A stretch of 64,000 bases of DNA from an uncultured Pseudomonadota bacterium (GTDB taxonomy: Bacteria > Myxococcota_A > UBA796 > SXON01): assembly GCA_903875225.1 (NCBI GenBank), contig CAIQVJ010000006.1:99380-163379 (forward strand), read 5' to 3'. A program made the position numbers and the translations under genes. Positions 2,033 through 54,580 of the stretch are shown here, piece by piece. The first letter of the stretch is position 1; the number at the start of each line of letters is the position of its first letter. The notes beneath the pieces were generated by a model. That model had not been told where the DNA came from. It worked only from the letters and a program-made list of their open reading frames with translations, and did not search any database.

Positions 2033-2041
2033 CTGGGCGGC

Positions 2042-4736: not shown

Positions 4737-5777
4737 ATGGACCCAGCGCGGCTCTCCGACCTCGCGATGTCGCGCTGCCCGGGCACGCTCCCCGCATCGG
4801 TTCGCAGCGCCCTCGACGTGTTGTGCCGCTCGCTCCGGGAGGATGCGCGCCTCACGCCCCTGGCGACGAGACCCGTCGAGCAGCTCATCGTGTCTGGCCT
4901 CGTGGCGCGCCTGCGGCTGGACGCCCGTGTCCCGGCAGACGCACGGCCCCGTACGCCGCCGCTCATCGTGTGCGGGCTGCCCCGGTCGGGCACCACGCTG
5001 CTCCACCGCCTGCTCGCATTGTCCGAGGGCGCCCGCGCGGTGCCGTTCTGGGAGCTCCACGCGCCTGTCCCCGGCGTCGAGCCCGACCACCGTCGTCGGG
5101 ACGCGCGCGCAGCGCTCGGGTGGCTCCACCTGTCCGGAGCCTCCGCGCTCCGACCGATGCGCGAGGATCTTCCTGACGAGTGCGGCCTCCTCCTCCGACT
5201 GGGCCTTCGGACGCAGCTGTTCTGGGCCCTTGCTCCGGTCCACGGCTACCTCGACTGGCTCCTCGACGAGCCCCCGCCGTATGCGGTCTACCGTCGCACG
5301 CTCGCCCACCTCGAGGGCCTTGCTCCCGGCCGCCTCGTGCTCAAGTACCCCGCGCATGCCCTCCACCTCCCCGCGCTGCTGGAGGCACTCCCCGGCGCGC
5401 AGGTCGTCGTCACCCACCGCGACCCCGACGACGTTCTGCCCAGCAGCCACCACCTCCTCCTGGGCCTCCACGCCCGGGTGAGCGACGATGTGGATGTGCC
5501 CCGCTGCATCGCTGCGAACACCCGCCGGCTCGCGCTCCAGGCCGAGCGGACGGCTGCTCACGCGAGCCATGCCTGCGTCCACGTGGCGCACCGCGCGCTG
5601 GTCGGCGACCCGGTGGGCACGGTCGGGTCGGTGCATGAGCAGCTCGGCCTGGAACCACCGGATCGTGCCCGACTGTGCGCCTTTGTCGAGGCCAACCCCA
5701 GGCCCCCGCGTACCGCAGCCCGCGCCCAGGTGCCCGGGTTCGAGGCGTATCGGGACCAGTTCGCCGGGTTCCTGTAG
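4737..5777 (+). CDS. Sulfotransferase family protein (PAPS-dependent)
   Basis: 5'-PSB motif CGLPRSGTTLLHRLL and 3'-PB motif VVVTHRDP. 346 aa. Confidence 0.65.
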   Translation: MDPARLSDLAMSRCPGTLPASVRSALDVLCRSLREDARLTPLATRPVEQLIVSGLVARLRLDARVPADARPRTPPLIVCGLPRSGTTLLHRLLALSEGARAVPFWELHAPVPGVEPDHRRRDARAALGWLHLSGASALRPMREDLPDECGLLLRLGLRTQLFWALAPVHGYLDWLLDEPPPYAVYRRTLAHLEGLAPGRLVLKYPAHALHLPALLEALPGAQVVVTHRDPDDVLPSSHHLLLGLHARVSDDVDVPRCIAANTRRLALQAERTAAHASHACVHVAHRALVGDPVGTVGSVHEQLGLEPPDRARLCAFVEANPRPPRTAARAQVPGFEAYRDQFAGFL

Positions 5778-17601: not shown

Positions 17602-17802
17602 ATGGCACATTGGCTCGAGAAGATCTACCGCCGCTTCGCGGCACCGGAACGGGAGGCGGCCCGGCTGGAGATCGTCCAGTGGTCGAGGCCGGCGCGGGAT
17701 GCGGAGTGGTCGAGGCGAGTGCTCACCGAGCCCGAACCCCGACCCCGGCAGGCACCCCTGGGCGACTTCCGGTTGGATGACGGGGACTCCGACCGGTTCT
17801 AG
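17602..17802 (+). CDS. Small hypothetical ORF (66 aa) between the serA-like gene and the KS gene
   Basis: ORF only. It is not an ACP, having no DSL motif. Confidence 0.15.
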   Translation: MAHWLEKIYRRFAAPEREAARLEIVQWSRPARDAEWSRRVLTEPEPRPRQAPLGDFRLDDGDSDRF

Positions 17803-17855
17803 TGCGCTCCGCCCCAGGCGCCCGGCCCGGGGTGCGGTCCCCGCAGCAGGATCGG

Positions 17856-19073
17856 ATGTCTGAATTGTCGGAGCGGGGAATCTGCCACCCCCCGGGTCGC
17901 GATAGGACGGTCAGCGTGAGAATCGCCATCACCGCTGCCTCCGTCCGGTGCGCCTCCGGACGTGAGCTGGTGCCGCCCACGCGCTGCTGGGCCTCGGTGG
18001 ACGACGACGCCCTCGCGCTCGGCATCCCGGGGGTCGCGCGGGCCACCGTGGAGGGCGACCCACGGTTTCCCGACGATCGCAAGGGGTCGCTCGCCGCCGC
18101 CGCGCTCGCGGAGATCGCCTCCGTGCCGGCGGGCGCACGTGTGGGCCTCTACCTCGGCACCGGGCTCTCGAGCCTCACCCCGGCCGAGCTGGCGATCGAC
18201 CTCTACCCCCACATCGTGGACGGCGCGTTCGATCGCCTGGCGATGGCGCGCGACCTCGCCACGGACCGTCCCTCTCCGCGTCGGCACCAGCCCGAGCGCG
18301 TCACCCAGGTGCTCGGGGCCGCGCTGGGCGCTGTGGTGACCGAGACCAGCTTCTCGGCCTGCGCCGCCGCTGCCCAGTCGATCCTGCAGGCCGCGCGCGC
18401 AGTGCATCGCGGGGACGTGGACGTCGCCTTCGCGGGCGGGCACGACTCGATGCTGCACGCGATCGGCTACCTCTCCTTCGTGGTGCTGGGCGCCCTCTCC
18501 CCAACCCGGGGCCGTCCGTTCGATCAGCAGCGCGACGGTTTCCTGATCGGTGAAGGCGCCGCCATGCTCCGGCTCCAACGCGAGGCCGACCTGTCCTCCG
18601 ATGATCGTGTCCTGGGCTGGATCGTCGGCGGAGGAACGAGCGTAGACGCCTACAACGTCACGCACCCGCATCCCGAGGGCTACGGCGCCGCCCTCGCCAT
18701 GCGCCGAGCGCTGCGCGACGCCGACCTCCAGCCCGGGGACATCGACTACGTCAACGCCCACGGGACCGGGACCCCCGTGGGGGATCAGGCGGAGTGCCTG
18801 GCGGTCCACCGCGTGCTCGGGGATGTGCCCGTGAGCTCCTTCAAGGGCGCGGTGGGGCACACCATCGCCGCGGCCGGTGCCGTGGAGCTGGCCTTGTGCC
18901 TCGGGATCTTCCCTTCGGGAGTGCTGCCGGGCACGCCGGGCCTCGTGACCCTCGACCCCGAGCTTCGCGCCCACGTGCTCAAGGATCCCGTGCGGGCCGA
19001 GGCGCGCCACATCCTCTCCAACTCCTTCGGCTTCGGCGGGCAGAACTGCGCGCTCATCGTCAAGGCACCCTGA
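17856..19073 (+). CDS. Beta-ketoacyl synthase (KS). The true start may be GTG near 17916 (VRIAITAAS)
   Basis: Active-site motifs TSFSACAAA (Cys), NAHGTGTP (His) and GHTIAAAG. C-terminal NSFGFGGQNCALIV. Confidence 0.75.
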   Translation: MSELSERGICHPPGRDRTVSVRIAITAASVRCASGRELVPPTRCWASVDDDALALGIPGVARATVEGDPRFPDDRKGSLAAAALAEIASVPAGARVGLYLGTGLSSLTPAELAIDLYPHIVDGAFDRLAMARDLATDRPSPRRHQPERVTQVLGAALGAVVTETSFSACAAAAQSILQAARAVHRGDVDVAFAGGHDSMLHAIGYLSFVVLGALSPTRGRPFDQQRDGFLIGEGAAMLRLQREADLSSDDRVLGWIVGGGTSVDAYNVTHPHPEGYGAALAMRRALRDADLQPGDIDYVNAHGTGTPVGDQAECLAVHRVLGDVPVSSFKGAVGHTIAAAGAVELALCLGIFPSGVLPGTPGLVTLDPELRAHVLKDPVRAEARHILSNSFGFGGQNCALIVKAP

Positions 19074-19088
19074 TCCTGCGGAGTCCTC

Positions 19089-19862
19089 ATGCCTCGCCAC
19101 GTACGCATCATCGGCGCATCCCTGTTCTGCCCCGCAGGCATCGGGATCTTCGGTCTGGGCCCCGCGAGCCCCGGTGCCGTCCCCGGTTTCGACCCCATCG
19201 CGTGCGGAGTGCCGCGAAAGCACCTCAAGACGATGACCCGCGCCGTCCAACTCGGGGTAGCCGGGGTGAACGCCGCGCTCGCCGTGGCGCCGGGGTGGGC
19301 GGAGATCCGTCCCGAGCGCCGGGGCCTCTTCGTGGGGGCCTCGCCCCAGGCGGGTGACGCCGAGGATCTTGCGGCGGCCCTGGCAGCGGCTGGTGGGGAT
19401 CCCGGGAGGTTCGCCCGGGAGGGGGTCTCGCTCATCCCCCCGCTGTGGCTCGTGAAGGGCCTCTCCAACAATGTTCTCGGCTATGCCTCGGCGCAGCACG
19501 ACCTGCGTGGCGACAACGGGAACTGGTGCGATGGACAGCTCGGCGGGGCCATCGCGCTCGCGCAGGCCGTTCACGCCATCGCGGAGGGCAGGGTGGATCT
19601 CGCGATCGCCGGGGGCGCAGACGCGTTGCTCGGCGCAGAGTCCGTCGTGGGTGGGCCGTGTGCCGAGGGCGCCGCGTTCATCGTCCTTGTCGCCGGCGAG
19701 CGAGGCGATGCCGTCGTCACCGCGGGGATCCCCTCGGAGGACGGCGTGGAAGAGGGCTTCGGCGCGTTGGGCGCTGCGGCGGTGCCGGTCGCGTGGGTGC
19801 GCTCGTGGCTGACGGACCGTAGGGCCGACGTCGGCGGGGTCCGGGGCGCCTGGAGCAGCTGA
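19089..19862 (+). CDS. Short KS-like (chain-length-factor-like) protein lacking the catalytic triad
   Basis: 257-aa thiolase-fold N-terminal half (RIIGASLFCPAG..., VDLAIAGGADALL). No KS Cys/His-His motifs. It sits immediately after a KS, as CLF partners do in type II systems. Confidence 0.55.
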   Translation: MPRHVRIIGASLFCPAGIGIFGLGPASPGAVPGFDPIACGVPRKHLKTMTRAVQLGVAGVNAALAVAPGWAEIRPERRGLFVGASPQAGDAEDLAAALAAAGGDPGRFAREGVSLIPPLWLVKGLSNNVLGYASAQHDLRGDNGNWCDGQLGGAIALAQAVHAIAEGRVDLAIAGGADALLGAESVVGGPCAEGAAFIVLVAGERGDAVVTAGIPSEDGVEEGFGALGAAAVPVAWVRSWLTDRRADVGGVRGAWSS

Positions 19863-19944
19863 ACTACATCCGCTTCCCGCGCTGCCGGGGGCGGAGGCGC
19901 GTTAAGGCTGGGCGCTCGTTCGGCTCGTTGCTCTGGAGGGTCTC

Positions 19945-20427
19945 TTGCGCTGGCGGTGGCTCAATCGCATCGACCACATCGAGCTCGGACAGAGCGCGAA
20001 GGGTTCGATGGTTTTTCCGGCGGATTCGCCCTTTTTCCAGGACCACTTCCCGGGCTTCCCGGTGGTGCCGGGCGTGCTGCTGCTCGAGGCCATGGCGCAG
20101 CTCTCGGGGAAGCTCATCGGGTACACGGTGCGCAAGGCGAGGGGTGATTGGCCCTTCCCCATCCTCTCGATGGCCAACAACGTGAAGTTTCGGAAATTCG
20201 TGCGCCCTGAGGAGCTCGCCTGCTTCGAGAGCACGCTGCTGGAGCTGCGGGAAGAGAGCGCCGTCGTGGCGGTGAAGACGCGAGTCGACGGGCGGGTGGT
20301 CGCCCAGGCCGAGGAGGTGTTCGTGTTCAACGCAGTGCCGCTGGCGAGCCCAGAAGAGGCCGACCGCCTCGAGCTCCTCGAGCGTGCCGAGCTGGCGCGC
20401 CTTTGGCCCGGATACCCGGGTGACTAG
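19945..20427 (+). CDS. FabZ-like 3-hydroxyacyl-ACP dehydratase
   Basis: FFQDHFPGFPVVPGVLLLEAMAQ matches the FabZ HFPGxPVxPGVLxxEAxAQ motif. Confidence 0.75.
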   Translation: MRWRWLNRIDHIELGQSAKGSMVFPADSPFFQDHFPGFPVVPGVLLLEAMAQLSGKLIGYTVRKARGDWPFPILSMANNVKFRKFVRPEELACFESTLLELREESAVVAVKTRVDGRVVAQAEEVFVFNAVPLASPEEADRLELLERAELARLWPGYPGD

Positions 20428-21604
20428 CCGTCGGCGCGTCGTCGTGACCGCGGTCGGCATGGTCACGCCGCTGGGCGTGGGCGTGGAGCGGACGTGGAGG
20501 GCCACGCTCGCCGGGGAGAACGGTGTCCGCCCCATCCAGCGCTTCGACGCGAGCGACTACCCGGTGCGGTTCGCCGCCGAGGTCGACGTGCCAGGCAGCG
20601 GCGCCACCCTGAAGCAGGCGCTGGCGATGCTCGCGTTGGACGAGGCCCTCGCATCCGGGGTCCCGGCGCCCGGGTCGCGTCTCGGCGTCTGCCTCGGGAG
20701 CGAGGCGGCGCGGCCCCCCCTCGAATGGTTGTTCCGCACCACGCCGCCGGCCGGGGAGGAGATCGCCGCGCTCGCGCCCGACGCACCCACCCGGATGATC
20801 GCGCGCCGACTGGGCGCGCTCGGTCCGCGCAGCACGGTCTCCACCGCGTGCACCAGCAGCAGCCAGGCCATCGGGGAGGCAGTGCTCCGCATTCGGCGCG
20901 GCGAGGTGGACACGATGATCGCCGGCGGCGTGGACGTGCTCTCCGAGCCCCTGATGGTGGTCGGCTTCTCCAAGCTCGGCGCGCTCTCCACGCGGAACGA
21001 TGCCCCCGAGCACGCGAGCCGACCGTTCGACCTTCACCGGGACGGGTTCGTGCTCGGGGAAGGGGCGGGAATGCTGGTGCTCGAAGAGCGCGAGCACGCG
21101 ATCGCCCGCGGGGCGTCGATCCTCGCGGAGGTCACCGGCTACGGCTGCTCCTGCAACGCGTGGCGGATCACCGACTCGCCGCCCGATGGGCGCGGTGCCG
21201 CGGCTGCCATGCTCGACGCCGTCACCGATGCCGGGCTCACCCCCGACGACATCGGCTACATCAACGCCCACGGCACGAGCACGCCCCAGAACGACCACTC
21301 CGAGAGCCAGGCCATCCACCGCGTGTTCGGCAAGCCCGTGCCTGTCTCCAGCACCAAGGGCCAGATGGGGCACCTGGTCGCCGCTTGCGGCGCCGTGGAG
21401 GCCATCCTCTGCGTGCTGGCGCTGCGGGACCAGGTCGTCCCGCCTACCCGAAACCTCGTCACGCCGGACCCTGCCTGCGGCGACCTCGACCACGTGCTCG
21501 TCGCGCGGCCCACCCACGGCTTGCTGCGTCACACGCTCACCAACGCGTTTGGCTTCGGCGGCTCCAACGGCAGCCTCGTGTTCTCGATGAGCGACACGTC
21601 GTGA
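20384..21604 (+). CDS. Beta-ketoacyl-ACP synthase (FabF/FabB-like KS). The start may be downstream, near RRVVVTAVG
   Basis: TVSTACTSS (Cys), NAHGTSTP (His), GHLVAACG and NAFGFGGSNGSLVF. Confidence 0.75.
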   Translation: MPSWRAFGPDTRVTSRRRVVVTAVGMVTPLGVGVERTWRATLAGENGVRPIQRFDASDYPVRFAAEVDVPGSGATLKQALAMLALDEALASGVPAPGSRLGVCLGSEAARPPLEWLFRTTPPAGEEIAALAPDAPTRMIARRLGALGPRSTVSTACTSSSQAIGEAVLRIRRGEVDTMIAGGVDVLSEPLMVVGFSKLGALSTRNDAPEHASRPFDLHRDGFVLGEGAGMLVLEEREHAIARGASILAEVTGYGCSCNAWRITDSPPDGRGAAAAMLDAVTDAGLTPDDIGYINAHGTSTPQNDHSESQAIHRVFGKPVPVSSTKGQMGHLVAACGAVEAILCVLALRDQVVPPTRNLVTPDPACGDLDHVLVARPTHGLLRHTLTNAFGFGGSNGSLVFSMSDTS

Positions 21605-35187: not shown

Positions 35188-36120
35188 ATGCTGACCCTGT
35201 TGCTCGCCTGCACCCCCCAGACCGCGCCGCTCGCCCCGACCGGGCAGGCAACCCTGCCAGACGCCTCCGTGATGGCCCCGCCCGTTGCCTCGCCGGGGAG
35301 CGGCCCCACGGCACCTGCACCGGCTGCTCCCCAGGACGTCTTTCCGGCGCCTGCGCGGGTGGTGGCAGTCGGGGATCTGCACGGTGACGTCGCCTCTGCG
35401 ATCGGCGCGCTCGAGCTCGCGAAGGTGGTCGACGCGACGGGGCACTGGACCGGTGGGGGTACCTGGCTCGTCCAGACCGGGGACGTGCTCGATCGGGGCA
35501 AGGACGGCCCGACGATGATCCGGTTTCTCACGCAACTGGAGCAGGAGGCCGCGGCCGCCGGGGGCCGGGCGCTCATCCTGGATGGAAACCACGAGGTGAT
35601 GAACCTTCAGGGGGACTGGCGGTACGTGGCGGATCTGGCGGAGTTCGGCGCGGCGCCGGACCCCCAGGCTGCGCGGCGTACGTGGATGGCGGAGGGTGCA
35701 GGTGGCGCCTGGGTGCGTGGGCATGGGATGGTCGTGCAGGTGGGCGAAACGGTGTTCGTCCACGCCGGCATCGACAGCCACTGGGCGTCCTACGGTGTCT
35801 CGGGCTTGAACACGCTGTTCCGTGCCGCGCTGGCTGCGCCCCCGGATCCGAAGTCCGGTGTGACCGGCCCGGACGGTCCGGTGTGGAACCGCGCCTACCT
35901 GTTGGAGGACCCGCCGGCGATCTGCCCGGAGTTGAAGCGGGCCCTGGCTGAGCTCCACGCGACGCGCATGGTGGTCGGGCACACCACGCAGGAGACGGGC
36001 CGCATCGCCGAGCGCTGCGAGGGGACGTTCTACGGGATCGACACGGGCATCAGCGCCTACTACGGCGTGCATCCCAGCGCGCTCGTGATCGAAGGGAGCG
36101 CAGTCACCCTGCTGCCGTAG
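35188..36120 (+). CDS. Calcineurin-like metallophosphoesterase lipoprotein
   Basis: Lipobox MLTLLLAC. Motifs VAVGDLHGD, GDVLDRG and LDGNHE. Confidence 0.7.
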   Translation: MLTLLLACTPQTAPLAPTGQATLPDASVMAPPVASPGSGPTAPAPAAPQDVFPAPARVVAVGDLHGDVASAIGALELAKVVDATGHWTGGGTWLVQTGDVLDRGKDGPTMIRFLTQLEQEAAAAGGRALILDGNHEVMNLQGDWRYVADLAEFGAAPDPQAARRTWMAEGAGGAWVRGHGMVVQVGETVFVHAGIDSHWASYGVSGLNTLFRAALAAPPDPKSGVTGPDGPVWNRAYLLEDPPAICPELKRALAELHATRMVVGHTTQETGRIAERCEGTFYGIDTGISAYYGVHPSALVIEGSAVTLLP

Positions 36121-36122
36121 CG

Positions 36123-37157
36123 CTACCGCCTGCGGAGCAGCACGAGGCCCAACCCCAGCGGCAGGAGCCACGCCATCGGGATCCCGCTGCTCGTGGTGCA
36201 GCCGCAGCCGCCCGTCACGGTGAAGGCACCGGACAGCGTGGCCGAGCTACCGTCCACGTTCCGCACGACGAGGTCGTGCACGCCGGCGGTCAGCGCGCTG
36301 GGCGTCTTGCCCGAAACGGTGCCGTCGTCCTGCACCACGACGTTGCTCGCGGCCAGCCCGCCGATCGTGACCTCGGCGCCGTCCACGAAGCCACTGCCGA
36401 GCGCGACGAAGTTCACGGGCATCCCCACATCGGTGGAGGCCGGGGTGATCTCGTAGACCGAGATGTCGCCGGAGGCGGTGTCGGTGTCGGCGTCCGAGTC
36501 GGCGTCCGAGTCCGAGTCGGAGTCGGTGTCGGCGTCGGAGTCCCCGCCCCCGGAGGAGGCCCGGATCACCCACGAGCCATGCGCGCCGGCGCTGGCCAAC
36601 GTCTGGACCCCGGTGGAGAGGTCGAGCCAGTTTCCTTCGTCCGGGGAGTCGTTGTGGATGAACAGGCCGGAGGTGTTGTTGGCGCTCGAATACGGCCACA
36701 CGTAGCCGCTGGTGTCGTCCGGCGCGCAGACCCAGACGATGAGGGCGACGTCGGTCATGGTGACGTTGTCGGTGCCGGCATCGACGTCGTGCAGCGTCAC
36801 GGTGTTGAACGCGCTCGAGGTCACCGTTGCCGCGATCTCCTGCGGGCCCCAGGCGAAGGGGGTCGAGAGCGAGGGTGTGCCTTCCCCGTTGGTCACCTGG
36901 ATCCCGACCTCCGCCAGCGTGTTCTCGCCGTCCTGGTCGCCGGTGTTGGACCCGAGCAGGAACTGCACGGTGTCGATCTCGAGCGGGAGGTCGGCGGCAT
37001 CCGCCTTGAGCACGCTGATGGCGCACTCGGGGTACGCGAGCCAGGCCACCTGGCTGTTGTCGGGGGAGAACGAGTCGTCGGTCGACGTGTCGTTTCGCAG
37101 CGTTGTACCCGCGAAGGCGGGCGCGAGCAGGGCGGGGAGCAGGGCGGCGAGAAGCAT
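36123..37157 (-). CDS. Secreted protein with a D-S/D-T repeat, an IPT/TIG-like domain and a MYXO-CTERM tail
   Basis: Signal MLLAALLPALLAPAFA. ...GGGDSDADTDSDSDSDADSDADTDTASG... C-terminus GGCGCTTSSGIPMAWLLPLGLGLVLLRRR. Confidence 0.6.
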   Translation of the reverse strand: MLLAALLPALLAPAFAGTTLRNDTSTDDSFSPDNSQVAWLAYPECAISVLKADAADLPLEIDTVQFLLGSNTGDQDGENTLAEVGIQVTNGEGTPSLSTPFAWGPQEIAATVTSSAFNTVTLHDVDAGTDNVTMTDVALIVWVCAPDDTSGYVWPYSSANNTSGLFIHNDSPDEGNWLDLSTGVQTLASAGAHGSWVIRASSGGGDSDADTDSDSDSDADSDADTDTASGDISVYEITPASTDVGMPVNFVALGSGFVDGAEVTIGGLAASNVVVQDDGTVSGKTPSALTAGVHDLVVRNVDGSSATLSGAFTVTGGCGCTTSSGIPMAWLLPLGLGLVLLRRR

Positions 37158-37241
37158 GCAGGGATCCTCAGCCGCTACGGTACCACGGCTGCGATGGGCC
37201 AGGGTGCCCGGCTCCGCGGGGGCTCCCCCGGATGGCGCAAG

Positions 37242-38697
37242 TCAGGGAGCAGGGCGGGCGGTGAACCAGCGGAACTCGCATCCCTCGACCGGCGCCTCGA
37301 AGGAGGGGGAGAGTCCCCAGCGCGAGACCAGGGCATCCGTGGCGGGGGAGGCGGGCTGGGCGCCGCACTGCCAGGTGGCCAGCCCGTCCGGCCTGAGCCC
37401 CTCCGCTCTTCGTTGCCCGACGCTGTAGAGGTCGACGCCCGGTTCCTGCATCAGGAAGAGCTCGAGCCCGCCGGGCTCCTCGCTGTGGGGGACAAACAGG
37501 CCGCCGTCGGCGACGACGATGCAGCGGTGCTTCGCGTCGCGGTGGGGACAGGTGGCGTCGAGCAGGGCGTGCACGCGGGTGGACGGCAGCTCCGGGTGCA
37601 CCGTGAGCTCCTCGTAGGCACGACCGGCCGTCCCCAGCGCCCAGGCGAGCACCACGAGGGCGGTGAGCCAGGGGCCGGACCTGCCTCGCGACAGGCCTGC
37701 CGCCGCGATCATCGACAGACCGACGTAGAACAGGGGGAAGTTGTCCAGCCCGCAGTGGACCACCGCGTACATCGCGAGGGATGCGAGCACCCACCCCGCC
37801 AGGATCAGCCGGTGCAGCGGATCGCCGCCCCGAGGGCCCGACGAATCCCTGCGGTGCAGCGCGAGCGAGGCGATGCCGAGCCCGACGAGCACGATCCCCG
37901 AGACGTGCAGCTGGTCGAGGAGCTGGGCACCGAGCCCCGGCACGACCCCTGCGTAGCGCTCGGCGACACCGAGCTTTCCGTGCACGTAGTTCGCGAAGAT
38001 CGGGGCGGGCACGAGCGCGGCCAGCACCCAGGACCCGAGCACCATCCCGATGGCGCGAGGGCGAACCCCGCCCGCCCGCCATCCGGCCACGCCTCCGGAG
38101 GCGCCGAGGAGCAGGAACCACAGCACACCCGAGGGCCGCAGGGTGATCGCGAGGGCCCCCGCGATCCCGATCCAGAGAGCGTTCGCCGGTCGGGTCAGCC
38201 TCGGATCGCTGGCCCACACGCCGGCCGCGAGCACGACGAGCGTGGCCTCCGGGACGTGGATCCAGCCGAGGCGCGACGACAGGATCAGGACCGGTAGCTG
38301 GGCTACGAGCGCTGTGGCGGCCACCGCGGTGGTCGCCCCGCGCCACTGCCAGGCCAATCGCGCGACCCCGATCAGCAGCAGCGAGAACCAGGGCACGCCC
38401 ATCGCCGAGAAGGCGATGCCGCTGGGTCCGGTCGCGTGCAGCCAAAGGGCCAGCAGTGCGTTGTACCAGCCGCCCGGCTGCTGGAGTGTGTGCAGCGCGG
38501 GCATCCAGAAACCGTGGCCGAGCTGATCGTAGAGCACCGGAAGCGGGCGGTAGGCGAGGTTCAGATCCCGGGGGAAGTTCTGCGCCGTGCCGACGTGGAG
38601 CCCGTGCTCGATCGTCGAGCCCGCGAGGACGATGGCCATGAGGATGACCCCGGACCGGGGGGGGCGGCCTGGGGCCACATTTTCGGGAGATGTGGCC
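37242..38697 (-). CDS. Polytopic membrane protein, possible GT-C family (GT39/PMT/ArnT-like) glycosyltransferase
   Basis: About 12 TM helices across 485 aa. Start chosen at MATSPENV. The assignment is made on overall architecture only. Confidence 0.35.
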
Positions 38698-38703
38698 ATT
38701 CGG

Positions 38704-40632
38704 CTACTTCTCGCCGGATCGGAGCGCGAGGAAGGGGTGGTCTGCCCCGGCGAGTGGGTCCTCCATCCCCGCCCGGAAAGCCAGGGCGAGGGGCTCGGGC
38801 ATGGCGTCAGCGACACGGGCACAGAACGCCGGGCTCGCGCCCGGATGGGGGCATGCCATCCCCGCGCCATACGCCAGGTCGGACCGAAAGTTCAGCGAGT
38901 CGATTGCGGTCCCCAGGCACTGGCCGAGGCGGGCGGCTCCGGCCGCCTTCGTGGACTTGCGATCACGGCAGACGTCGGCGATGGCGGGACCGACGGCCCG
39001 GCAGGTCCAACACTCGCCCTCGGGCGCACCAGCGGTCGCCAACGCCAGGATGTCCGCCCCCCGCGCGGCGGCGTTCACGGCGCGATCCTTCGCCGGGGGT
39101 CTGGGGCGTGTGCCCGGCAGTGGAGGGGCGCCGTTGGAAACGCCAAACATGAGGTTTGCAGCCATTCCCTGGCCGAGCGCACGAGCCGTTTCGGGCGGGA
39201 GCGTCGCGAGGAGAGCATTCGTCGTGAGCAGAGCGGGCCATCCGGCGATCGGGTACGTCAAACCCTGCCCGAAGGCTGCTACTGCGGTGTCTGGCATGCC
39301 AGCCAGGGAAGGAATCGTCGTCGCGTCGAGCCGCTGGCTCCGCATCGCCGCCTGGTACCCCTCCACCCGCCGCAGGGCTGCCTCGGTGCGCGAGTCGCCG
39401 GAGTGCGCGGTCGACAGGTGCGTCGACCGCCCGATCGCGAGTCCGGTGAATCCCGGGTGATGGATCGCCCGGATCCCCCAGACGTCGTGCAAGGGTTCGT
39501 GGTGTTCTTCGAACGCCTTGAAGCTTTGCATCCAACCCCAGCCATCTGCGCCCAGCATGGCGAGAACACCGATCGCGCCTGCCTTTGCTCGCCAGCCGGA
39601 CCCACCCGCACCGCTCGCCCCGAGCGCTGTCAGGAGCATCATCCACGGCGCGTGGTAACGCATGTTCATCAATGCGCCGTGGGGCGTCATCTTCGCCAGG
39701 GGAAAGCCCGAGATCACGTAGAGCGCTGCGTAGGCGCCGACCATCGCGGGGACCGCGAAGCGCACCCGGCCCCGGGCGCTTTCCCCAGCCAGGACGACGA
39801 GCCCGATGACCGCGCCCGCGAGCCACAATGTGGTGGCGATGGTCGTCCGGTCGAGGCCGGTGAACAATCGCAGCCCCAGCTGATCCGGCCTCCACAAGGC
39901 AAGTCCACGCTCGGCTGCCTCGCCCGCGCCGTAGGGGAGCAGGTTGGACGCCAGATCCATCTGGTAGGTGCCATGGTCGCCGGCCGCAGCCGGGATCGCG
40001 ATCAGGGACCCGCCCGCCAGGAGCCCTGCGATCACGCGCCAGCGGCCATCACGCGGGGCGAGCGCGAAGGGGAGCAGCGCCACCGGGGCGAGCAGGGTGG
40101 TGCGGCAGAACCACAGCCCAAGGCCCATGCAGAGCCCGCCCAACGCCGATCGCCCGGTCGCGACGCAGCCCAGGGCTGCGAATACGAAGAACATGCTCTC
40201 CGTGTGGTTGCCCCAGAGCATCAGCGAGAGGTCCGAGACCCCGAGCGGCGGGACGGCGAAGAGCACGGCGAAGGCCCACCCGGCGCGGCGCCCCGCGTGG
40301 GCCGAGAGGGCCCAGAACCCCGCGAGCAGCGTCGCTGTCGTCCAGAGCAGGCCCACGCCCTTCCACAGCACGAGGTGGTCGCCCCCGAGCGCGAAGATCG
40401 GCGCGACGAGCACCGAGTCGACGGTGCAGCCTCCGCAGAAGCTCTTGTACTGCAGCGTGAGGAGCTGGTCCCACAAGCCGGCGTGCACGACGTACCAGCC
40501 CACCGCAGCGTTGTAGTTGTCCTCCCAGTTCCAGTAGCGCTCCGGATCGATGAGGTAGCGGCTGGCATCGAGCGCGACGCGCAGCGCGACGAGCACCAGG
40601 AGCACGAGCTTTTCGCGGATCGAGATCGTCAA
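38704..40632 (-). CDS. Polytopic membrane protein with an N-terminal GT-C-like acidic-loop motif and a C-terminal periplasmic domain
   Basis: TM1 is followed by YWNWEDNYNAAVGW (a DE/ED loop motif typical of GT-C transferases). About 10 TM helices, then a soluble domain of roughly 250 aa with paired Cys. Confidence 0.35.
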   Translation of the reverse strand: MTISIREKLVLLVLVALRVALDASRYLIDPERYWNWEDNYNAAVGWYVVHAGLWDQLLTLQYKSFCGGCTVDSVLVAPIFALGGDHLVLWKGVGLLWTTATLLAGFWALSAHAGRRAGWAFAVLFAVPPLGVSDLSLMLWGNHTESMFFVFAALGCVATGRSALGGLCMGLGLWFCRTTLLAPVALLPFALAPRDGRWRVIAGLLAGGSLIAIPAAAGDHGTYQMDLASNLLPYGAGEAAERGLALWRPDQLGLRLFTGLDRTTIATTLWLAGAVIGLVVLAGESARGRVRFAVPAMVGAYAALYVISGFPLAKMTPHGALMNMRYHAPWMMLLTALGASGAGGSGWRAKAGAIGVLAMLGADGWGWMQSFKAFEEHHEPLHDVWGIRAIHHPGFTGLAIGRSTHLSTAHSGDSRTEAALRRVEGYQAAMRSQRLDATTIPSLAGMPDTAVAAFGQGLTYPIAGWPALLTTNALLATLPPETARALGQGMAANLMFGVSNGAPPLPGTRPRPPAKDRAVNAAARGADILALATAGAPEGECWTCRAVGPAIADVCRDRKSTKAAGAARLGQCLGTAIDSLNFRSDLAYGAGMACPHPGASPAFCARVADAMPEPLALAFRAGMEDPLAGADHPFLALRSGEK

Positions 40633-42053
40633 TGGCCGGCCAGATAACCAGCGACTTCGGGGGACAGGGTCGCGCGCGGGATCGCACGACGCTGCCAGAC
40701 CGCGACGCCGGCTGCGCTGTAGATCAACCCGTGCGACGATGTCGACGTGATCGCGTGCAGCGTGCCGGGCAGGCCGCCGGCGGCGTCGGGCAGGGTCACG
40801 TCGGCGACCACGTAGTCCCAGTCCCGAACCGGACGGCGGGCGATCACCCCGAGCCGGCGGTGGTCGGCGAACCGGGCGACGAGCGTGTCCTGCGCGAGCA
40901 CCGATGCGCCGGCAGGGACGAGCGCCAGGGCCTCCTGGACAGCGCGGGCATCGGCGCGCGCCGATGCGCCCAGCAGATCAGTCGTCGGCACGCCGGGGCT
41001 CCACGCCGCCGCACACGCGCCCGCCGTCCCGAGGATGAGCACGCCCACGATCCCGCGCGCGGTCCAGGGCCCCGGGAAGCGCCGCCCGAGGCGCGCGGCC
41101 GCCAGCGCGGCCGCCACGGTGAGCACCGCCAGCGACGGCGCGCCGTAGTGAAACGCGGCGTCGACGTGGTTGGGGTTCGAGCCCAGCAGGCGCTCCGCGA
41201 GGAACGGTGCGGCCGCGAGAGTCAGGGGATCGCCGAGCGGGAGGAACCCGAGCGCGCCGAAGCCGAGCAGCAGCAGGCGCAGCTTCTCCGGGCTGTCGAC
41301 CGCAGTCCTGAGCACCGCGACCGGGTTCGCCCAGCCGCCATCCCGCAGCGCCGGCGCCCACTCGAACATGTGGAACGCAGCCCCCCGGAACCAGGGGATC
41401 ACCGCGAAGATGCAGGCGAGCGACCACGCCGCGCCGAACACGGCGAGCGAGAGCCCGACCGCCCGCTCCCGCCGGGCGAGCGCGGTCCAGATGCCGAGCC
41501 CGGCGAGGTAGAAGCCGACGTCCTCCTTGCAGCAGAGGGCCAGGAGGGTGAGCCCCGCCGCCCGGCGGGGGTGGCGCGTGTCGAAGGCGTCGAAGGCGAA
41601 GATGAGCAGGGGGGCGACGAGCGTGGACGGGTGGACCGGGAACATCACGGCGGCCGTGGTGGCCGGGTTGACGAGGTACGCGAGCGCGAGCGTGAAGGCC
41701 ACGGCGGGCGAGCCCGTGGCTCGGAACGTGATCCGGGCGAGCGGCCGCGCCGCTGCCGCGACCAGGGCGGTCTCCCCCACGATCAGGGCGAACGGCGTGC
41801 CGCACGCGCGGAGGATCGGCGCGTACAGGTACAGGATCGGTTGGAAGTGGTCCCCGAGCCAGTGGGTGTTGTTGAGCAGCGAGCTGCGCCCGGGCTCCCC
41901 GTGGGCGAGCCCCCAGGTGACTTGAGCGAATATGCCGAAGTCGAAGGCGGGCAGTTGGTTCGCCTGCCACAGGAGCCAGAGACGGGTGATCCATGCGGCC
42001 CACACGAGGCCCATCGCCACCGCCACGGCGCGTGTGGGTTCGGCGGGCCTCAC
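40629..42053 (-). CDS. Polytopic membrane protein (DUF2079-like)
   Basis: 474 aa, more than 10 TM helices. 4-nt overlaps with both neighbours. Confidence 0.3.
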   Translation of the reverse strand: MRPAEPTRAVAVAMGLVWAAWITRLWLLWQANQLPAFDFGIFAQVTWGLAHGEPGRSSLLNNTHWLGDHFQPILYLYAPILRACGTPFALIVGETALVAAAARPLARITFRATGSPAVAFTLALAYLVNPATTAAVMFPVHPSTLVAPLLIFAFDAFDTRHPRRAAGLTLLALCCKEDVGFYLAGLGIWTALARRERAVGLSLAVFGAAWSLACIFAVIPWFRGAAFHMFEWAPALRDGGWANPVAVLRTAVDSPEKLRLLLLGFGALGFLPLGDPLTLAAAPFLAERLLGSNPNHVDAAFHYGAPSLAVLTVAAALAAARLGRRFPGPWTARGIVGVLILGTAGACAAAWSPGVPTTDLLGASARADARAVQEALALVPAGASVLAQDTLVARFADHRRLGVIARRPVRDWDYVVADVTLPDAAGGLPGTLHAITSTSSHGLIYSAAGVAVWQRRAIPRATLSPEVAGYLAGH

Positions 42054-43711
42054 AGGAGCCGGACGACCGGCTGCCCTTTCATCAGCACGCGCTGGGTGCG
42101 GAGGTCGGTCACCGTCGCGATCAGCCAGCGCTCGGCGTTCACGCCGAGCCGGACGTCCAGTCGTGGCTTGTTGTCGCTCGGCTGGTGGGGCGGGTCGATC
42201 GTCCCGAGCGTGGGGTTCGCCTCGTTCAGCGGCACCACGACCACCCCGTCGGTGTCGCGGTCCAGGGGGCGCAGGCCGCCCCCGGCGTCCCAGCCGAACT
42301 TCACGCCGGCCTCGTCATTGTGCCCGATCTCCGCCACCAGGAGCTTGAACAGGGTCTCGGGCTCCCCGAGCGGGCAGGCGGGCACCAGCTGGCGGTGCCA
42401 CACGTCTGCGCAGGGCACCGGCGTTCCGCGCGGGACGACGACGGTGTGCGCCTTCGCGCCCCCGCCTCGCGCGTGGGTGACCAGCGCGTAGTCGTGGACG
42501 ATGAAGTCGGAGAGGCGCAGGTCGCCCCCGCCGAAGGCCGCGGCTCCGAGCGCCACGGCCTCGAACGGCTGCCACGCCCGGATGGCGTCCCGGCCAAAGT
42601 GCGCCTCCAACCGCGGGTAGATGCCGGGCAGCAGCGTGGAGCCGCCGATCAGCAACACGTCGCTCGCGCCGCCCCGGGCAACCCGCGCAAGCTGCCCCTC
42701 GAGCAGGCTGTACAGCCCGCGGGCCTCGAGCACGCCGGTGAGGTCTGCCGCGGTCCAGCGCTGGCCCGAGAGCGCTGTCGCCCGCGCTTTCAACCCACGC
42801 AGCTCCTCGGGTGCGAAGAGGGTGAACGTCGCCTCCTCGCCCACGTGCAGCGCCTCCTTCACGCGGCGAGCCTCGGCCAGCATCGATCGGCGCCACAGGA
42901 TCGTGGTCTCGTCGTTCACGCCGTCGTCCAGCCGGATGCCCGCGCGTTCGGCCACGGCGTCGAGGATCCACCGGTCCACGGTGTCCCCGCCGATCGGGTG
43001 CCCCTCCTTGGCGAGCACCTCGCACCCTCCGGCATCGACGCCGCGCGGCGAGAGGCGCACGCGAGCGACGTGACAGGTGCCGCCGCCGATGTCCACAACC
43101 ACGACTTCGCGCGGCTTGTCGAGCCCGACACCGTAGCCGATCGCCGCTGCGACCGGTTCGTCCACGAAGCGCACCGTGCGGATCCCGGCGCTCTCGAGCA
43201 CGGCGCGGAGCTCGGCCCTGTAGGACTCGAAGCTGTCGATCGGCGAGGCGACCACGATGTCGCGGATGCGCTCCCCAGTGACTTGCTGCACCTCGTCCAA
43301 CAGCTCCCGGACGTACAGCCTGGCCGCCTCGCGCGCGCTCACGGGCTTCCTGCCCACGTGGGCGACGGGGAAGAGAGGGTCGCGCGCCAGCGCGGCCTTG
43401 AACGAGGGGCAGTAGCTGGGGGTGGGCCAGATCGCGTTCGGCTCGTGCGCCGGGCGACCGATCTCGGCTTCTTCCCCGATGAACACCCAGTCCCGCAGCA
43501 GCGGCAGGCGGCCGATCTTCACCCGCAGGTCGGGCTCCAGGGCCACGATGCAGCTGGGCACCATGCGGCCCGCGCCCAGCTCCTCCGCGCCGAGCGCATC
43601 CGCGCGGCGGCAGATCCGCGGGAGCTCGATCAGCTCCGCCCTTCGGGCACCGGCGTTCCAACGGGCCAGCCCGGAGTTGGTGGTGCCGAGGTCAAGGCCC
43701 CAAACGGACAT
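42050..43711 (-). CDS. Atypical Hsp70-family protein (DnaK-like nucleotide-binding domain with a divergent C-terminus)
   Basis: GLDLGTTNS (phosphate 1), VVVDIGGGT (phosphate 2) and DEPVAAAIGYG motifs. No canonical substrate-binding-domain signature. Confidence 0.6.
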   Translation of the reverse strand: MSVWGLDLGTTNSGLARWNAGARRAELIELPRICRRADALGAEELGAGRMVPSCIVALEPDLRVKIGRLPLLRDWVFIGEEAEIGRPAHEPNAIWPTPSYCPSFKAALARDPLFPVAHVGRKPVSAREAARLYVRELLDEVQQVTGERIRDIVVASPIDSFESYRAELRAVLESAGIRTVRFVDEPVAAAIGYGVGLDKPREVVVVDIGGGTCHVARVRLSPRGVDAGGCEVLAKEGHPIGGDTVDRWILDAVAERAGIRLDDGVNDETTILWRRSMLAEARRVKEALHVGEEATFTLFAPEELRGLKARATALSGQRWTAADLTGVLEARGLYSLLEGQLARVARGGASDVLLIGGSTLLPGIYPRLEAHFGRDAIRAWQPFEAVALGAAAFGGGDLRLSDFIVHDYALVTHARGGGAKAHTVVVPRGTPVPCADVWHRQLVPACPLGEPETLFKLLVAEIGHNDEAGVKFGWDAGGGLRPLDRDTDGVVVVPLNEANPTLGTIDPPHQPSDNKPRLDVRLGVNAERWLIATVTDLRTQRVLMKGQPVVRLL

Positions 43712-43730
43712 CCGAGCCCTCTACCCCGGT

Positions 43731-44705
43731 CTACTCGGCGGCGGCGACGGCGCACCAGTCGGCGTTGTTGCCCAACCCGTCGGTCGCGTAGGGCGAAGGC
43801 TGCCCGAAGCTGTGGGCGGCGAGCCAGTCCTGGGCGATGTTCCAGTCCTTCCGCCCCATCTCGTGCCCGTTGTCGTCCTGGCAGCGCACGACGAAGTGGC
43901 TGTCCGCGAGAAGCTCGCCCTGGAGCGTGTCCGTGGCGGCGGCGAAGTCGACGACGACCATCGAGGTGCTGGGCCACACGTCCACAGCGTCCGCTCCCGT
44001 GGTGAGGAGCACGGGAAGGCCGGTGACCGGCGTGGTGTACTCGGCGAGCAGCGTGTCGAACCCCGGGGCGGTCACGTCGCTGCCGCCCGACAGCTCGACG
44101 GCGGTCGCGATGGTGTCCGCGCGGTGCACCGTGATGACTGTCGTCCACAACGCGCCGCCGGAGAAGCCGACGATCGAGAGCCGGCTCAGGTCCACGTCGA
44201 GGTTCTGGGCCGCGCAGGTGCGCAGGTCGTCGTAGAGGACCAGATCGTGGTCGGTCGAGAGCGTGAGGTCCCAGAGGTAGACGTTCATGACGCCCAGCAG
44301 GTTCTGGACGGGCGCGTCGGGCACGATCCACACCGTGTTGGTCGAGTCGGCGAGCGCCTGCAGGTCGAGCGCCGACGCGGTGTCGCCGCCCGGGTTGGTG
44401 CTGCTGGCTGGGTCTGCGACGCCGTGGAAGAAGAAGTTCACGGGCATCGCCGTGCCGGGCGAGGAGGGGATGACCACGGTCACCTGCCGCTCTTCGTCGC
44501 TGGAGAGGAACGTGGACGTCCCGGACGTGGAGAAGTCCGGGCAGGCCCCCGACGACAGCGGCGCAAGCTCGGCGGGGCCGCCGTCGACCGCGGTGTCGGC
44601 GGTGTCGTCCCCGGCGGGTGTTGCGGTGTCGTCCGTCTTGCCGGTGCAGGCGACGAGGGGGGCGAGCAGGACGAGGAGGGTGAGCGGGGAGACAGACATC
44701 GGCAC
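43731..44705 (-). CDS. Lipoprotein alpha/beta-hydrolase (esterase/depolymerase-like)
   Basis: Lipobox LVACTG. Nucleophile elbow GFSGGA (GxSxG). Confidence 0.5.
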   Translation of the reverse strand: MPMSVSPLTLLVLLAPLVACTGKTDDTATPAGDDTADTAVDGGPAELAPLSSGACPDFSTSGTSTFLSSDEERQVTVVIPSSPGTAMPVNFFFHGVADPASSTNPGGDTASALDLQALADSTNTVWIVPDAPVQNLLGVMNVYLWDLTLSTDHDLVLYDDLRTCAAQNLDVDLSRLSIVGFSGGALWTTVITVHRADTIATAVELSGGSDVTAPGFDTLLAEYTTPVTGLPVLLTTGADAVDVWPSTSMVVVDFAAATDTLQGELLADSHFVVRCQDDNGHEMGRKDWNIAQDWLAAHSFGQPSPYATDGLGNNADWCAVAAAE

Positions 44706-44844: not shown

Positions 44845-47460
<2,616 letters not shown>

Positions 47461-51749: not shown

Positions 51750-52036
51750 TCCGGCTTCGCGGCGCGGGGCTATCAAGAAACGCGTGACACGGTCGAGTCC
51801 GTTGATGATGGTCGTGGGGGCGATCGTGTGTGCGGAAAGACACATGGGGGTCGAGAAGAGGCCCATAGGTAATTCAGCCCATGGGGCGGGAGACACGCGC
51901 CCCTGTGTGCGAAAGCCCACCACCTGGGGGCCCAGCGGGGTGCAGGACGGATCAACGCCGAAGATGACGTTTCGTGACACGTGGCCCGCTTCTTGCGGTA
52001 GGGCGATTCCCCCCAACCCGCAGCTCGGAGAGCTCC

Positions 52037-54580
<2,544 letters not shown>

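What the first reader, a model, noticed from the sequence alone, without database searches (positions are those of the whole stretch)
36123..44705. Minus-strand operon: esterase lipoprotein, atypical Hsp70, three polytopic (GT-C-like) membrane proteins and a TIG/MYXO-CTERM (DS-repeat) protein
Six co-directional genes have 4-nt start/stop overlaps (42053/42050 and 40632/40629) and short gaps. One is an Hsp70-family ATPase lacking a canonical substrate-binding domain. Three are large multi-TM proteins, one with the acidic first-loop motif of GT-C glycosyltransferases. An alpha/beta-hydrolase lipoprotein sits upstream and a DS-repeat surface protein downstream. The arrangement suggests a dedicated envelope machine, for example one that glycosylates or processes a lipid-linked substrate or the repeat-linker surface protein, with an Hsp70-like ATPase as an unusual component.
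Basis: partly seen in the sequence, partly recalled or inferred. Interest (0 to 1): 0.6.

Follow-up and report, generated by a model that had tools for sequence, protein, structure and literature searches.

The report
Three-enzyme envelope glycosylation cluster; Hsp70 incidental
The six genes are real, but only a pair of membrane sugar-transferases and a neighbouring surface protein recur in related bacteria, while the Hsp70-like gene that made the locus look special sits there in this genome alone.

Summary
All six minus-strand genes exist at the stated coordinates, and the domain calls largely hold. Predicted structures place g4 and g5 in the GT-C glycosyltransferase fold, although neither matches any Pfam family. 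g3 is a DUF2079 protein. Each of the three has an invariant acidic residue in its first periplasmic loop, and they are unrelated to one another in sequence.

The six-gene machine is not conserved. In the four other lineages that carry the locus, the recurring unit is DUF2079, then g4 with a 4-nt start/stop overlap, then the TIG/MYXO-CTERM protein g6, then a convergent metallophosphoesterase lipoprotein. That unit was seen in full in three of the four lineages. g5 is present in one of them, the esterase g1 in one, and the Hsp70-like gene in none.

The Hsp70-like protein is intact. It belongs to a family of more than 1000 full-length proteins with a nucleotide-binding domain, a linker and a divergent beta subdomain, but no helical lid. 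In six other loci it never neighbours these membrane genes. In four of the six it is followed by a membrane-anchored HEAT-repeat protein.

The best reading is a lineage-restricted periplasmic glycosylation cluster in uncultured Myxococcota, with an Hsp70 paralogue inserted by chance. The acceptor is unknown.

The parts
43731..44705 (-). g1: exported lipoprotein, probably an alpha/beta-hydrolase of the PHA-depolymerase/esterase type. The likely start is the ATG at 44699. It is a variable neighbour, not part of the conserved core.
   Evidence: Lipobox LVAC and a GFSGG elbow are visible in the sequence. Only sub-threshold family hits were found. A 78%-identical orthologue lies directly upstream of DUF2079 in L014/L069, but none is present in L065 or L013/L067.
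42050..43711 (-). g2: lidless Hsp70-family protein with an NBD, a linker and a divergent SBD-beta. It is present at this position only in this genome.
   Evidence: PF00012 E 2.7e-26. The family profile aligns to DnaK 6-422, with a weak tail match to DnaK 463-489. More than 1000 full-length homologues exist. None of six distinct homologous loci carries the membrane genes.
40629..42053 (-). g3: DUF2079-family polytopic membrane protein, a presumed GT-C enzyme. It is a core gene, translationally coupled to g4.
   Evidence: PF09852 E 3.5e-48. About 9 hydrophobic segments. Invariant motifs AFD38FG, HWLGDHFQP and CKEDVG. The 4-nt overlap with g4 is conserved in the four other lineages.
38704..40632 (-). 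g4: Pfam-less GT-C-fold membrane protein with a roughly 260-aa helical, Cys-rich periplasmic C-terminal domain. It is a core gene.
37242..38699 (-). g5: a second Pfam-less GT-C-fold membrane protein, with a small Cys-rich alpha/beta C-terminal domain. It is an optional member, seen in the window and L065 only.
   Evidence: The AF2 model has pLDDT 87. The Foldseek top 36 hits are all GT-C. The motif FPRD45LNLAY is invariant. Only 11 homologues were found, and two of them stand alone in other contexts.
36123..37157 (-). g6: secreted surface protein. It has a signal peptide, a conserved N-terminal domain of about 180 aa, a D-S/T repeat linker, a TIG domain and a MYXO-CTERM sorting signal. It is conserved next to g3-g4.
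   Evidence: TIG and MYXO-CTERM hits are above their cut-offs. Orthologues are 64-80% identical in L065, L014 and L013.
36470..36542 (.). Hexanucleotide tandem repeat that encodes the D-S/T linker of g6.
   Evidence: Tandem Repeats Finder: period 6, 12.2 copies. The linker is retained in all four orthologues.
35188..36120 (+). Metallophosphoesterase lipoprotein, convergent with g6 and separated from it by 2 nt. It is conserved with the core in the three lineages where the sequence reaches that far.
   Evidence: PF00149 E 2.4e-6. The lipobox LLAC is visible in the sequence. Orthologues are 62-75% identical in L065, L014/L069 and L013/L067.

Best explanation
The region is a lineage-restricted periplasmic glycosylation cluster of an uncultured, roughly 70% GC freshwater Myxococcota lineage.

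Its conserved core is two unrelated GT-C-type membrane glycosyltransferases, DUF2079 (g3) and a Pfam-less family (g4). They are translationally coupled, so they are probably made in fixed proportion. They probably act as a pair, either in consecutive steps or as a heteromer.

A third unrelated GT-C enzyme (g5) was added in the window/L065 branch.

By analogy with all characterised GT-C enzymes, these proteins would take a sugar from a polyprenyl-phosphate-linked donor on the periplasmic face. A loop-1 acidic residue would act in catalysis, and the C-terminal periplasmic domain would bind the acceptor.

The acceptor is unknown. One candidate is the adjacent MYXO-CTERM surface protein g6, through its D-S/T linker. 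Another is an envelope glycan or lipid.

The Hsp70-like gene g2 and the esterase lipoprotein g1 are probably co-transcribed here, but they are not conserved parts of the system. g2 is a member of a large lidless-Hsp70 family that landed between g1 and g3 in this genome.

Shown here: gene structure, folds, motifs, and the synteny pattern.
Inferred: donor type, pairing, acceptor, and co-transcription.
For: - GT-C fold of g4 and of g5.
- DUF2079 hit for g3.
- Invariant loop-1 acidic residues.
- The three families are unrelated at profile level.
- The g3/g4 4-nt overlap is present in all five lineages.
- g3-g4-...-g6-metallophosphoesterase recurs in the window, L065, L014/L069 and L013/L067, while the upstream flank differs in every lineage and the downstream flank differs in L013/L067.
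- Hsp70 is absent from every other copy of the block, and the block is absent from six Hsp70-homologue loci.
- One MAG (JBMOQZ01) carries the Hsp70+HEAT pair and two g4 paralogues on three separate contigs.
- g6 has all the parts of a MYXO-CTERM protein. Such proteins are cleaved by myxosortase and displayed on the cell surface (PMC11980579).
Against: - No polyprenyl-phosphate glycosyltransferase or flippase, the usual partners of periplasmic GT-C enzymes (PMC11127046), lies in the 64-kb window.
- The GT-C status of g3 rests on the Pfam family alone and was not tested structurally here. A profile of its orthologues found nothing relevant in the PDB.
- The lineages carrying the block are fairly close relatives (neighbour proteins 62-80% identical), and synteny in three of them runs on past the metallophosphoesterase. 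The g6 linkage could therefore be inherited gene order rather than function.
- In this genome g2 does overlap the g3 start. Co-expression is therefore likely, and a local functional link cannot be excluded.
- The contexts of the closest Hsp70 homologues (59-62% identical, on 2-6 kb contigs) were not examined.
Confidence: 0.6

Rival explanations
1. All six genes form one dedicated envelope machine, in which the cytoplasmic Hsp70-like ATPase works with the GT-C membrane proteins, for example by holding or delivering the repeat-linker protein or by regulating the transferases.
For: - In this genome the six genes are co-directional with gaps of 84 nt or less, and g2's stop overlaps g3's probable GTG start.
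- Relatives of g2 are usually coupled to a membrane-anchored partner, a HEAT-repeat protein with an N-terminal TM helix. A membrane-proximal role is therefore plausible.
- Hsp70 paralogues affect exopolysaccharide production in Myxococcus xanthus: StkA and SglK (PMC4319316, PMC8265645).
Against: - None of six distinct g2-homologue loci has DUF2079, g4, g5 or g6.
- None of four other lineages with the g3-g4 block has an Hsp70 gene there.
- In L014/L069 the esterase gene abuts DUF2079 directly, with a 57-nt gap, which marks g2 as an insertion.
- No J-domain or nucleotide-exchange partner is present in the locus.
Confidence: 0.07
2. A specific version of the core hypothesis. g3, g4 and (where present) g5 are protein O-glycosyltransferases. 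Like PMT enzymes, they would decorate Ser/Thr residues of the D-S/T linker, or of the N-terminal domain, of the adjacent MYXO-CTERM protein g6 as it crosses the periplasm.
For: - g6 stays next to g3-g4 in all four lineages where the sequence extends that far, even where two unrelated genes are inserted between them (L013/L067).
- The D-S/T linker is retained in all orthologues.
- Two of ten distant members of the g4 family give sub-threshold PMT_2 hits.
- Paralogous g4 genes often lie near secreted FG-GAP proteins that have D-S/T-rich stretches.
Against: - Structural similarity is equally good to OST, ALG, ArnT and arabinosyltransferases, so the fold does not identify the acceptor.
- The adjacency may be inherited synteny.
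- FG-GAP and MYXO-CTERM proteins are numerous in these genomes, so their proximity may be chance.
- g5 homologues occur away from any g6-like gene.
Confidence: 0.2
3. Only g3 and g4 are functionally linked. All the other genes (g1, g2, g5, g6 and the metallophosphoesterase) are unrelated envelope or cytoplasmic genes that are neighbours through shared ancestry and compact genome packing.
For: - Gene content around g3-g4 varies between lineages.
- Synteny continues into unrelated genes downstream in three lineages.
- g4 paralogues at 35-42% identity occur without DUF2079 or g6.
- g5 homologues occur alone.
Against: - g6 and the metallophosphoesterase persist beside g3-g4 in the most divergent lineage, L013/L067, where both outer flanks have changed.
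- Every product except g2 is exported or membrane-embedded.
Confidence: 0.25

Closest known systems
ArnT / PMT_2-type GT-C glycosyltransferases (CAZy GT83 and GT39; structures 5F15, 9E61, 6P2R)
   Different: g4 and g5 themselves show no significant sequence match to any Pfam or NCBIfam model. Their C-terminal domains differ: g4's is all-helical and Cys-rich, and g5's is a small alpha/beta domain with four invariant Cys. Donor and acceptor are unknown.
Oligosaccharyltransferases AglB / PglB / STT3 and the ALG mannosyltransferases
   Different: Sequence identity is 8-14%. The WWDxG-type motif of the OST C-terminal domain was not looked for. No lipid-linked oligosaccharide assembly genes lie nearby.
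Paired GT-C enzymes (Pmt1-Pmt2, EmbA-EmbB)
   Same: Two GT-C proteins are encoded or assembled together. Here g3 and g4 keep a 4-nt start/stop overlap in five lineages.
   Different: Those pairs are paralogues. g3 and g4 show no detectable sequence relationship. No physical interaction was tested.
Three-component periplasmic glycosylation systems (polyprenyl-phosphate sugar synthase, flippase and GT-C; GtrABC-like; PMC11127046)
   Same: In both, the final step is carried out in the periplasm by a GT-C enzyme.
   Different: The synthase and the flippase are not encoded in or near this locus. If they exist, they lie elsewhere in the genome.
Non-canonical Hsp70 paralogues of Myxococcota (15 hsp70 genes in M. 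xanthus; StkA and SglK affect exopolysaccharide; PMC8265645, PMC4319316)
   Same: g2 is a non-DnaK Hsp70-family member in a Myxococcota genome, with a conserved NBD and an altered C-terminal region.
   Different: Orthology to StkA or SglK was not tested. The g2 family ends after the beta subdomain, with no lid. It is usually followed by a TM-anchored HEAT-repeat protein.
MYXO-CTERM surface proteins such as TraA (PMC11980579)
   Same: g6 has the Cys-containing signature (GGCGC), a TM helix and an Arg-rich tail, and it scores above the TIGR03901 cut-off.
   Different: The N-terminal domain of g6 has no recognised family. Processing by myxosortase is assumed, not shown.

Membership tests
GT-C fold glycosyltransferases | A polytopic membrane domain with the conserved GT-C helical core | tested here: met
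GT-C fold glycosyltransferases | The GT-C core in g3 (DUF2079) | not tested
   Only the Pfam DUF2079 hit is available. That Pfam groups DUF2079 with the GT-C clan is my recollection and was not checked here. Profile comparisons to g4, g5 and the PDB were negative.
GT-C fold glycosyltransferases | A conserved acidic residue in the first extracytoplasmic loop after TM1 | tested here: met
   g3 D38 is invariant in 5 orthologues. g4 E37 is invariant in 22 sequences. g5 D45 is invariant in 11 sequences. The models place the g4 and g5 residues between TM1 and TM2.
GT-C fold glycosyltransferases | Use of a polyprenyl-phosphate-linked sugar donor, and transferase activity | not testable with these tools
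   This needs biochemistry. No donor-synthesis genes lie nearby.
Hsp70 (DnaK-type chaperone) | An actin-fold nucleotide-binding domain with the phosphate-binding motifs | tested here: met
   PF00012 at 92 bits. The motifs DLGTTN, DxGGGT and GGS are invariant across 32 family members. The family profile matches DnaK at E 1.7e-37.
Hsp70 (DnaK-type chaperone) | A substrate-binding beta subdomain after the interdomain linker | tested here: inconclusive
   The profile alignment continues to DnaK residue 422, covering the linker and the first beta strands. The tail gives only a non-significant match to DnaK 463-489. No structure was predicted.
Hsp70 (DnaK-type chaperone) | An alpha-helical lid and a C-terminal tail | tested here: not met
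   The protein, and the whole 545-587 aa family, ends at the position equivalent to about DnaK residue 490.
Hsp70 (DnaK-type chaperone) | A J-domain or nucleotide-exchange co-chaperone encoded alongside | tested here: not met
   No such domain occurs in the neighbouring genes here or in six homologous loci. The recurrent neighbour is a HEAT-repeat protein.
MYXO-CTERM sorted surface proteins | A C-terminal Cys-containing signature, a TM helix and an Arg-rich tail | tested here: met
   TIGR03901 at 24.2 bits against a cut-off of 20. The sequence ends GGCGC...LLPLGLGLVLLRRR and is conserved in four orthologues.
Conserved six-gene operon | The same genes adjacent in independent genomes | tested here: not met
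   Only g3-g4 recur in all four other lineages. g6 and the metallophosphoesterase recur in the three lineages where the contig extends far enough. g5 occurs in 1 of 3 and g1 in 1 of 4. g2 occurs in none of the 4, and none of six Hsp70 loci has the block.
Conserved six-gene operon | Co-transcription in this genome | not testable with these tools
   Gaps are 84 nt or less. Terminator-like sites are not in excess (4 found, 2.5 expected) and all four lie inside coding sequence. No transcript data are available.

The most novel reading that the evidence does not exclude
In this one lineage a lidless Hsp70-family ATPase has swapped its usual membrane-anchored HEAT-repeat partner for a set of GT-C glycosyltransferases. 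It would then couple cytoplasmic ATP turnover to periplasmic glycosylation of a MYXO-CTERM surface protein. The start/stop overlap with DUF2079 mirrors the overlap this Hsp70 family has with its HEAT partner in other genomes.
Probability: 0.05. Interest if true: 0.7.

Novelty: new member of a known kind. Interest (0 to 1): 0.3.

Why it matters
g4 and g5 add two families without any Pfam model to the GT-C glycosyltransferase fold. The g4 family has about 1000 clusters at 50% identity, and g5 has only 11 known sequences. Both were found only in metagenome assemblies and MAGs; where an organism is named, it is mostly an uncultured Myxococcota or 'Deltaproteobacteria' bin. Together with a DUF2079 protein, which also has no known function, they give a compact locus in which to ask what these enzymes glycosylate. 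A conserved surface protein next door is an obvious candidate.

The result also removes the most eye-catching claim. The Hsp70-like gene is a lineage-specific insertion, not a component of the system.

The lidless Hsp70 family itself is large and uncharacterised, and so is its recurrent membrane-anchored HEAT-repeat partner. It may be the more interesting lead.

Tried and rejected
- Transporter identity for the membrane proteins. Rejected: there are no transporter family hits, and transporters appear only at probability 0.3 or below in the g5 fold search.
- The three membrane proteins as paralogues. Rejected: pairwise BLASTP and hhalign found nothing significant.
- Anti-phage defence role. Only one weak PADLOC hit was found, for g2 at E 0.0013, so this was dropped.
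- Decayed dnaK fragment. Rejected on full-length conservation.
- A HEAT partner hidden elsewhere in the window. tblastn found none.
- More copies of the block in JGI metagenome contigs. Scans with the g3 and g6 alignments both returned nothing.
- A solved-structure relative for g1, g3 or g6 by sequence. Only spurious hits came back.
- Literature on DUF2079/PF09852. Nothing useful was found.
- AFDB fold search for g4. The library was unavailable.
- Intrinsic promoters or terminators dividing the operon. No promoter-like site was found, and terminator-like sites were at the chance level.
Full report
**1. What is in the sequence**

The window has about 70% GC. Between 36123 and 44705 the minus strand carries six ORFs with the third-position GC typical of real genes (0.86-0.96).
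- g1: 43731-44705, 324 aa.
- g2: 42050-43711, 553 aa.
- g3: 40629-42053, 474 aa.
- g4: 38704-40632, 642 aa.
- g5: 37242-38699, 485 aa. The ORF extends to 38870, but the ATG at 38699 gives exactly the database protein P0149.
- g6: 36123-37157, 344 aa.

The spacing is tight: 19 nt, a 4-nt overlap, a 4-nt overlap, 4 nt and 84 nt.

The g3/g4 overlap uses a TTG start. That codon aligns with Met1 of 21 homologues.

The g2/g3 overlap needs a GTG start, whereas public gene callers chose an ATG 39 nt downstream. The peptide upstream of that ATG is conserved in the orthologues, and none of them has Met at that position. I therefore accept the overlap as probable.

No promoter-like site was found. Terminator-like sites were not in excess (4 found, 2.5 expected), and all four lie inside coding sequence.

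Flanking genes are valyl-tRNA synthetase (divergent from g1, 44845-47460) and a metallophosphoesterase lipoprotein (convergent with g6, 35188-36120, 2 nt between the two stop codons).

Identical contigs occur in freshwater metagenome assemblies. Relatives are uncultured Myxococcota MAGs.

**2. The individual proteins**

g1 has a lipoprotein signal (LVAC) and a GFSGG nucleophile elbow. Its only family matches are sub-threshold hits to PHA-depolymerase and esterase models. 'Esterase lipoprotein' is therefore plausible but weakly supported.

g2 matches the Hsp70 NBD (PF00012, E 2.7e-26).
- It has more than 1000 homologues at E 1e-10 or better. The 120 listed are 510-587 aa long and 48-62% identical, and nearly all cover 99-100% of the query. 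Those that carry a source name are mostly from Myxococcota or Deltaproteobacteria MAGs, with one from Planctomycetota.
- The ATP-binding motifs are invariant across 32 members. It is not a decayed dnaK.
- A profile of the family aligns to DnaK residues 6-422. That covers the NBD, the linker and the first beta strands of the substrate-binding domain.
- The last 30 residues give a weak, non-significant match to DnaK 463-489, and the protein then ends.
- The accurate description is therefore a lidless Hsp70 with a divergent beta subdomain, not an Hsp70 without a substrate-binding domain.
- Multiple non-canonical Hsp70 paralogues are a known feature of myxobacteria. M. xanthus has 15, and two of them affect exopolysaccharide production (PMC8265645, PMC4319316).

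g3 is a DUF2079 protein (E 3.5e-48). It has about nine hydrophobic segments. The motifs AFD38FG, HWLGDHFQP and CKEDVG are invariant in five orthologues.

g4 has no Pfam or NCBIfam match.
- An AlphaFold model built from 22 homologues is confident (pLDDT 91, pTM 0.91).
- E37 lies at the start of the first periplasmic loop and is invariant, as is an FCGGC motif.
- Residues from about 380 to 642 form a helical domain with conserved cysteines, which fits a periplasmic location.

g5 also has no family match.
- Its model (pLDDT 87) hits only GT-C enzymes in the first 36 Foldseek places. These include STT3, ALG12, ALG9, PglB, ArnT (TMq 0.60), DPY19, Pmt4, AftA, AftB and Emb.
- The loop-1 motif FPRD45LNLAY is invariant, and so are four cysteines in the small C-terminal alpha/beta domain.

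Pairwise BLASTP and profile-profile comparison found no significant similarity among g3, g4 and g5. They are three separate families, not recent duplicates.

g6 has a signal peptide and a conserved N-terminal domain of about 180 aa with no family match. It then has a D-S/T linker encoded by a 6-nt repeat of 12.2 copies, a TIG domain and a MYXO-CTERM signal. The TIG and MYXO-CTERM hits are above their curated cut-offs. MYXO-CTERM proteins are cleaved by myxosortase and displayed on the cell surface (PMC11980579).

**3. Is the block conserved?**

This is the decisive test, and the answer is only partly.

*Anchored on g2.* I examined six distinct loci that encode homologues 50-58% identical: L004/5, L006/7, L008/9, L010, L011 and L012.
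- tblastn with all six window proteins finds only g2 in these loci.
- In four of them (L006, L008, L011, L012) the next gene is a HEAT_2-repeat protein.
- These HEAT proteins are homologous to one another, carry an N-terminal transmembrane helix, and often overlap the Hsp70 stop codon.
- No such gene is in the window.

*Anchored on g4.* The word-indexed search found 28 homologues. A genome scan with their alignment returned 52 loci. All are 61-77% GC MAG contigs, and many carry wrong organism titles.

The orthologous locus occurs in four other lineages:
- L065: g3 67% identity, g4 71%, g5 68%, g6 80%, metallophosphoesterase 69%. It has no g1 and no g2.
- L014/L069: g1 78%, g3 53%, g4 50%, g6 73%, metallophosphoesterase 75%. 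It has no g2 and no g5.
- L013/L067: g3 48% and g4 50%, then a DUF2071 gene and an opposite-strand 541-aa phosphoesterase-like gene, then g6 63% and metallophosphoesterase 62%.
- L016: g3 and g4, then the contig ends.

The g3/g4 4-nt overlap is present in every one of them. In L014/L069 g1 lies 57 nt upstream of g3. This marks g2 in the window as an insertion between two genes that were formerly adjacent, or alternatively as a loss in L014/L069.

Paralogous g4 genes (35-42% identical) lie in unrelated contexts without DUF2079 or g6.

g5 has only 11 homologues. Two of them (44-46% identical) stand alone elsewhere.

One MAG (JBMOQZ01) carries the Hsp70+HEAT pair and two g4 paralogues on three different contigs.

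*Caveat.* The lineages are not very distant from one another. In three of them the synteny continues past the metallophosphoesterase into two further genes. Part of the conservation may therefore be simple inheritance. The L013/L067 lineage is the most informative, because both outer flanks have changed there while g3-g4, g6 and the metallophosphoesterase remain.

**4. Most likely function**

The conserved core is a translationally coupled pair of unrelated GT-C enzymes, with a third added in one branch.

All characterised GT-C enzymes transfer sugars from polyprenyl-phosphate-linked donors on the extracytoplasmic face of the membrane. They use a loop-1 acidic residue and often a C-terminal acceptor-binding domain. 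This is established knowledge of the family, summarised for example in PMC11127046. The anatomy found here fits that scheme.

The donor, the acceptor and any heteromer formation are inferences.

The neighbouring surface protein g6 is a candidate acceptor through its Ser/Thr-rich acidic linker, by analogy with PMT-type protein O-mannosylation. I rate this at about 0.2, for two reasons:
- The fold does not discriminate between protein, lipid and glycan acceptors.
- No donor-synthesis or flippase genes are present in the 64-kb window.

**5. Comparison with what is known, and novelty**

g4 and g5 are new sequence families of a well-known fold.
- A full HMM search of 1.84 billion cluster representatives finds 998 relatives of g4 at E 1e-3 or better, and 96 at E 1e-30 or better.
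- Of ten distant members scanned, none passes a Pfam threshold for a membrane domain.
- Two of the ten give sub-threshold PMT_2 hits, and one has an N-terminal cytidylyltransferase domain.

The cluster is thus a new member of a known kind, periplasmic GT-C glycosylation loci. It is not a new kind of machine.

The Hsp70 association, which drove the original interest score, is not supported.

**6. Verdict**

The envelope glycosylation theme and the GT-C assignment hold. The Hsp70 component and the six-gene unit do not.

Interest is 0.3. The residual novel reading, that the Hsp70 has been recruited in this lineage, has a probability of about 0.05.

Noticed in passing
L006:10001-13210, L008:10001-12720, L011:871-3758, L012:10001-14006: The lidless Hsp70-like family (more than 1000 homologues) is followed in 4 of 6 distinct loci by a HEAT_2-repeat protein. 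These partners are homologous to one another, have an N-terminal TM helix, and often overlap the Hsp70 stop codon. L012 has two of them in tandem. This looks like an uncharacterised two-gene module.
   Followed up: partly
P0160-P0298; P0277: The g4-type GT-C family has 998 cluster representatives at E 1e-3 or better in 1.84 billion, and no Pfam model. Several MAGs carry two or more paralogues. One member (P0277, 812 aa) has an N-terminal cytidylyltransferase-like domain fused to the GT-C domain.
   Followed up: partly
L040:3751-13055, L041:3571-9754, L045, L063: A different recurring neighbourhood contains two g4-family genes together with sulfatase-family proteins, another Pfam-less polytopic membrane protein, and an MsbA-like ABC exporter.
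   Followed up: partly
L065:36-5229: In the closest relative, two more Pfam-less polytopic membrane proteins (535 and 685 aa) and an amine-oxidase/GLF-like flavoprotein lie divergently upstream of DUF2079. They take the place of the esterase and Hsp70 genes of the window.
   Followed up: no
L015, L022, L024, L026, L028, L029 and others (cluster c1): Secreted FG-GAP / MopE-motif proteins with D-S/T-rich stretches lie next to or near g4 paralogues in 13 loci. These proteins are abundant in such genomes, so this may be chance.
   Followed up: partly
window 51974-54580 (+): An 868-aa protein combines MtrC/MtrF-like multihaem cytochrome domains with collagen triple-helix repeats.
   Followed up: no
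window 632-5777 and 17802-21604 (+): Several ketoacyl-synthase genes, an AMP-binding enzyme and a sulfotransferase suggest a lipid or polyketide-type biosynthetic cluster in the left part of the window.
   Followed up: no
L014, L023, L036, L039-L047 and others: Many high-GC (61-73%), Myxococcota-like MAG contigs in the genome collection carry implausible organism titles, such as Bifidobacterium breve, Klebsiella pneumoniae and uncultured Enterobacterales.
   Followed up: no
window 35188-36120 (+); L065:11704-12645; L069:5895-6830; L067:15472-16425: A metallophosphoesterase lipoprotein stays convergent with g6 in all four lineages where the sequence extends that far. Its end lies within about 60 nt of the end of g6, or overlaps it.
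   Followed up: partly
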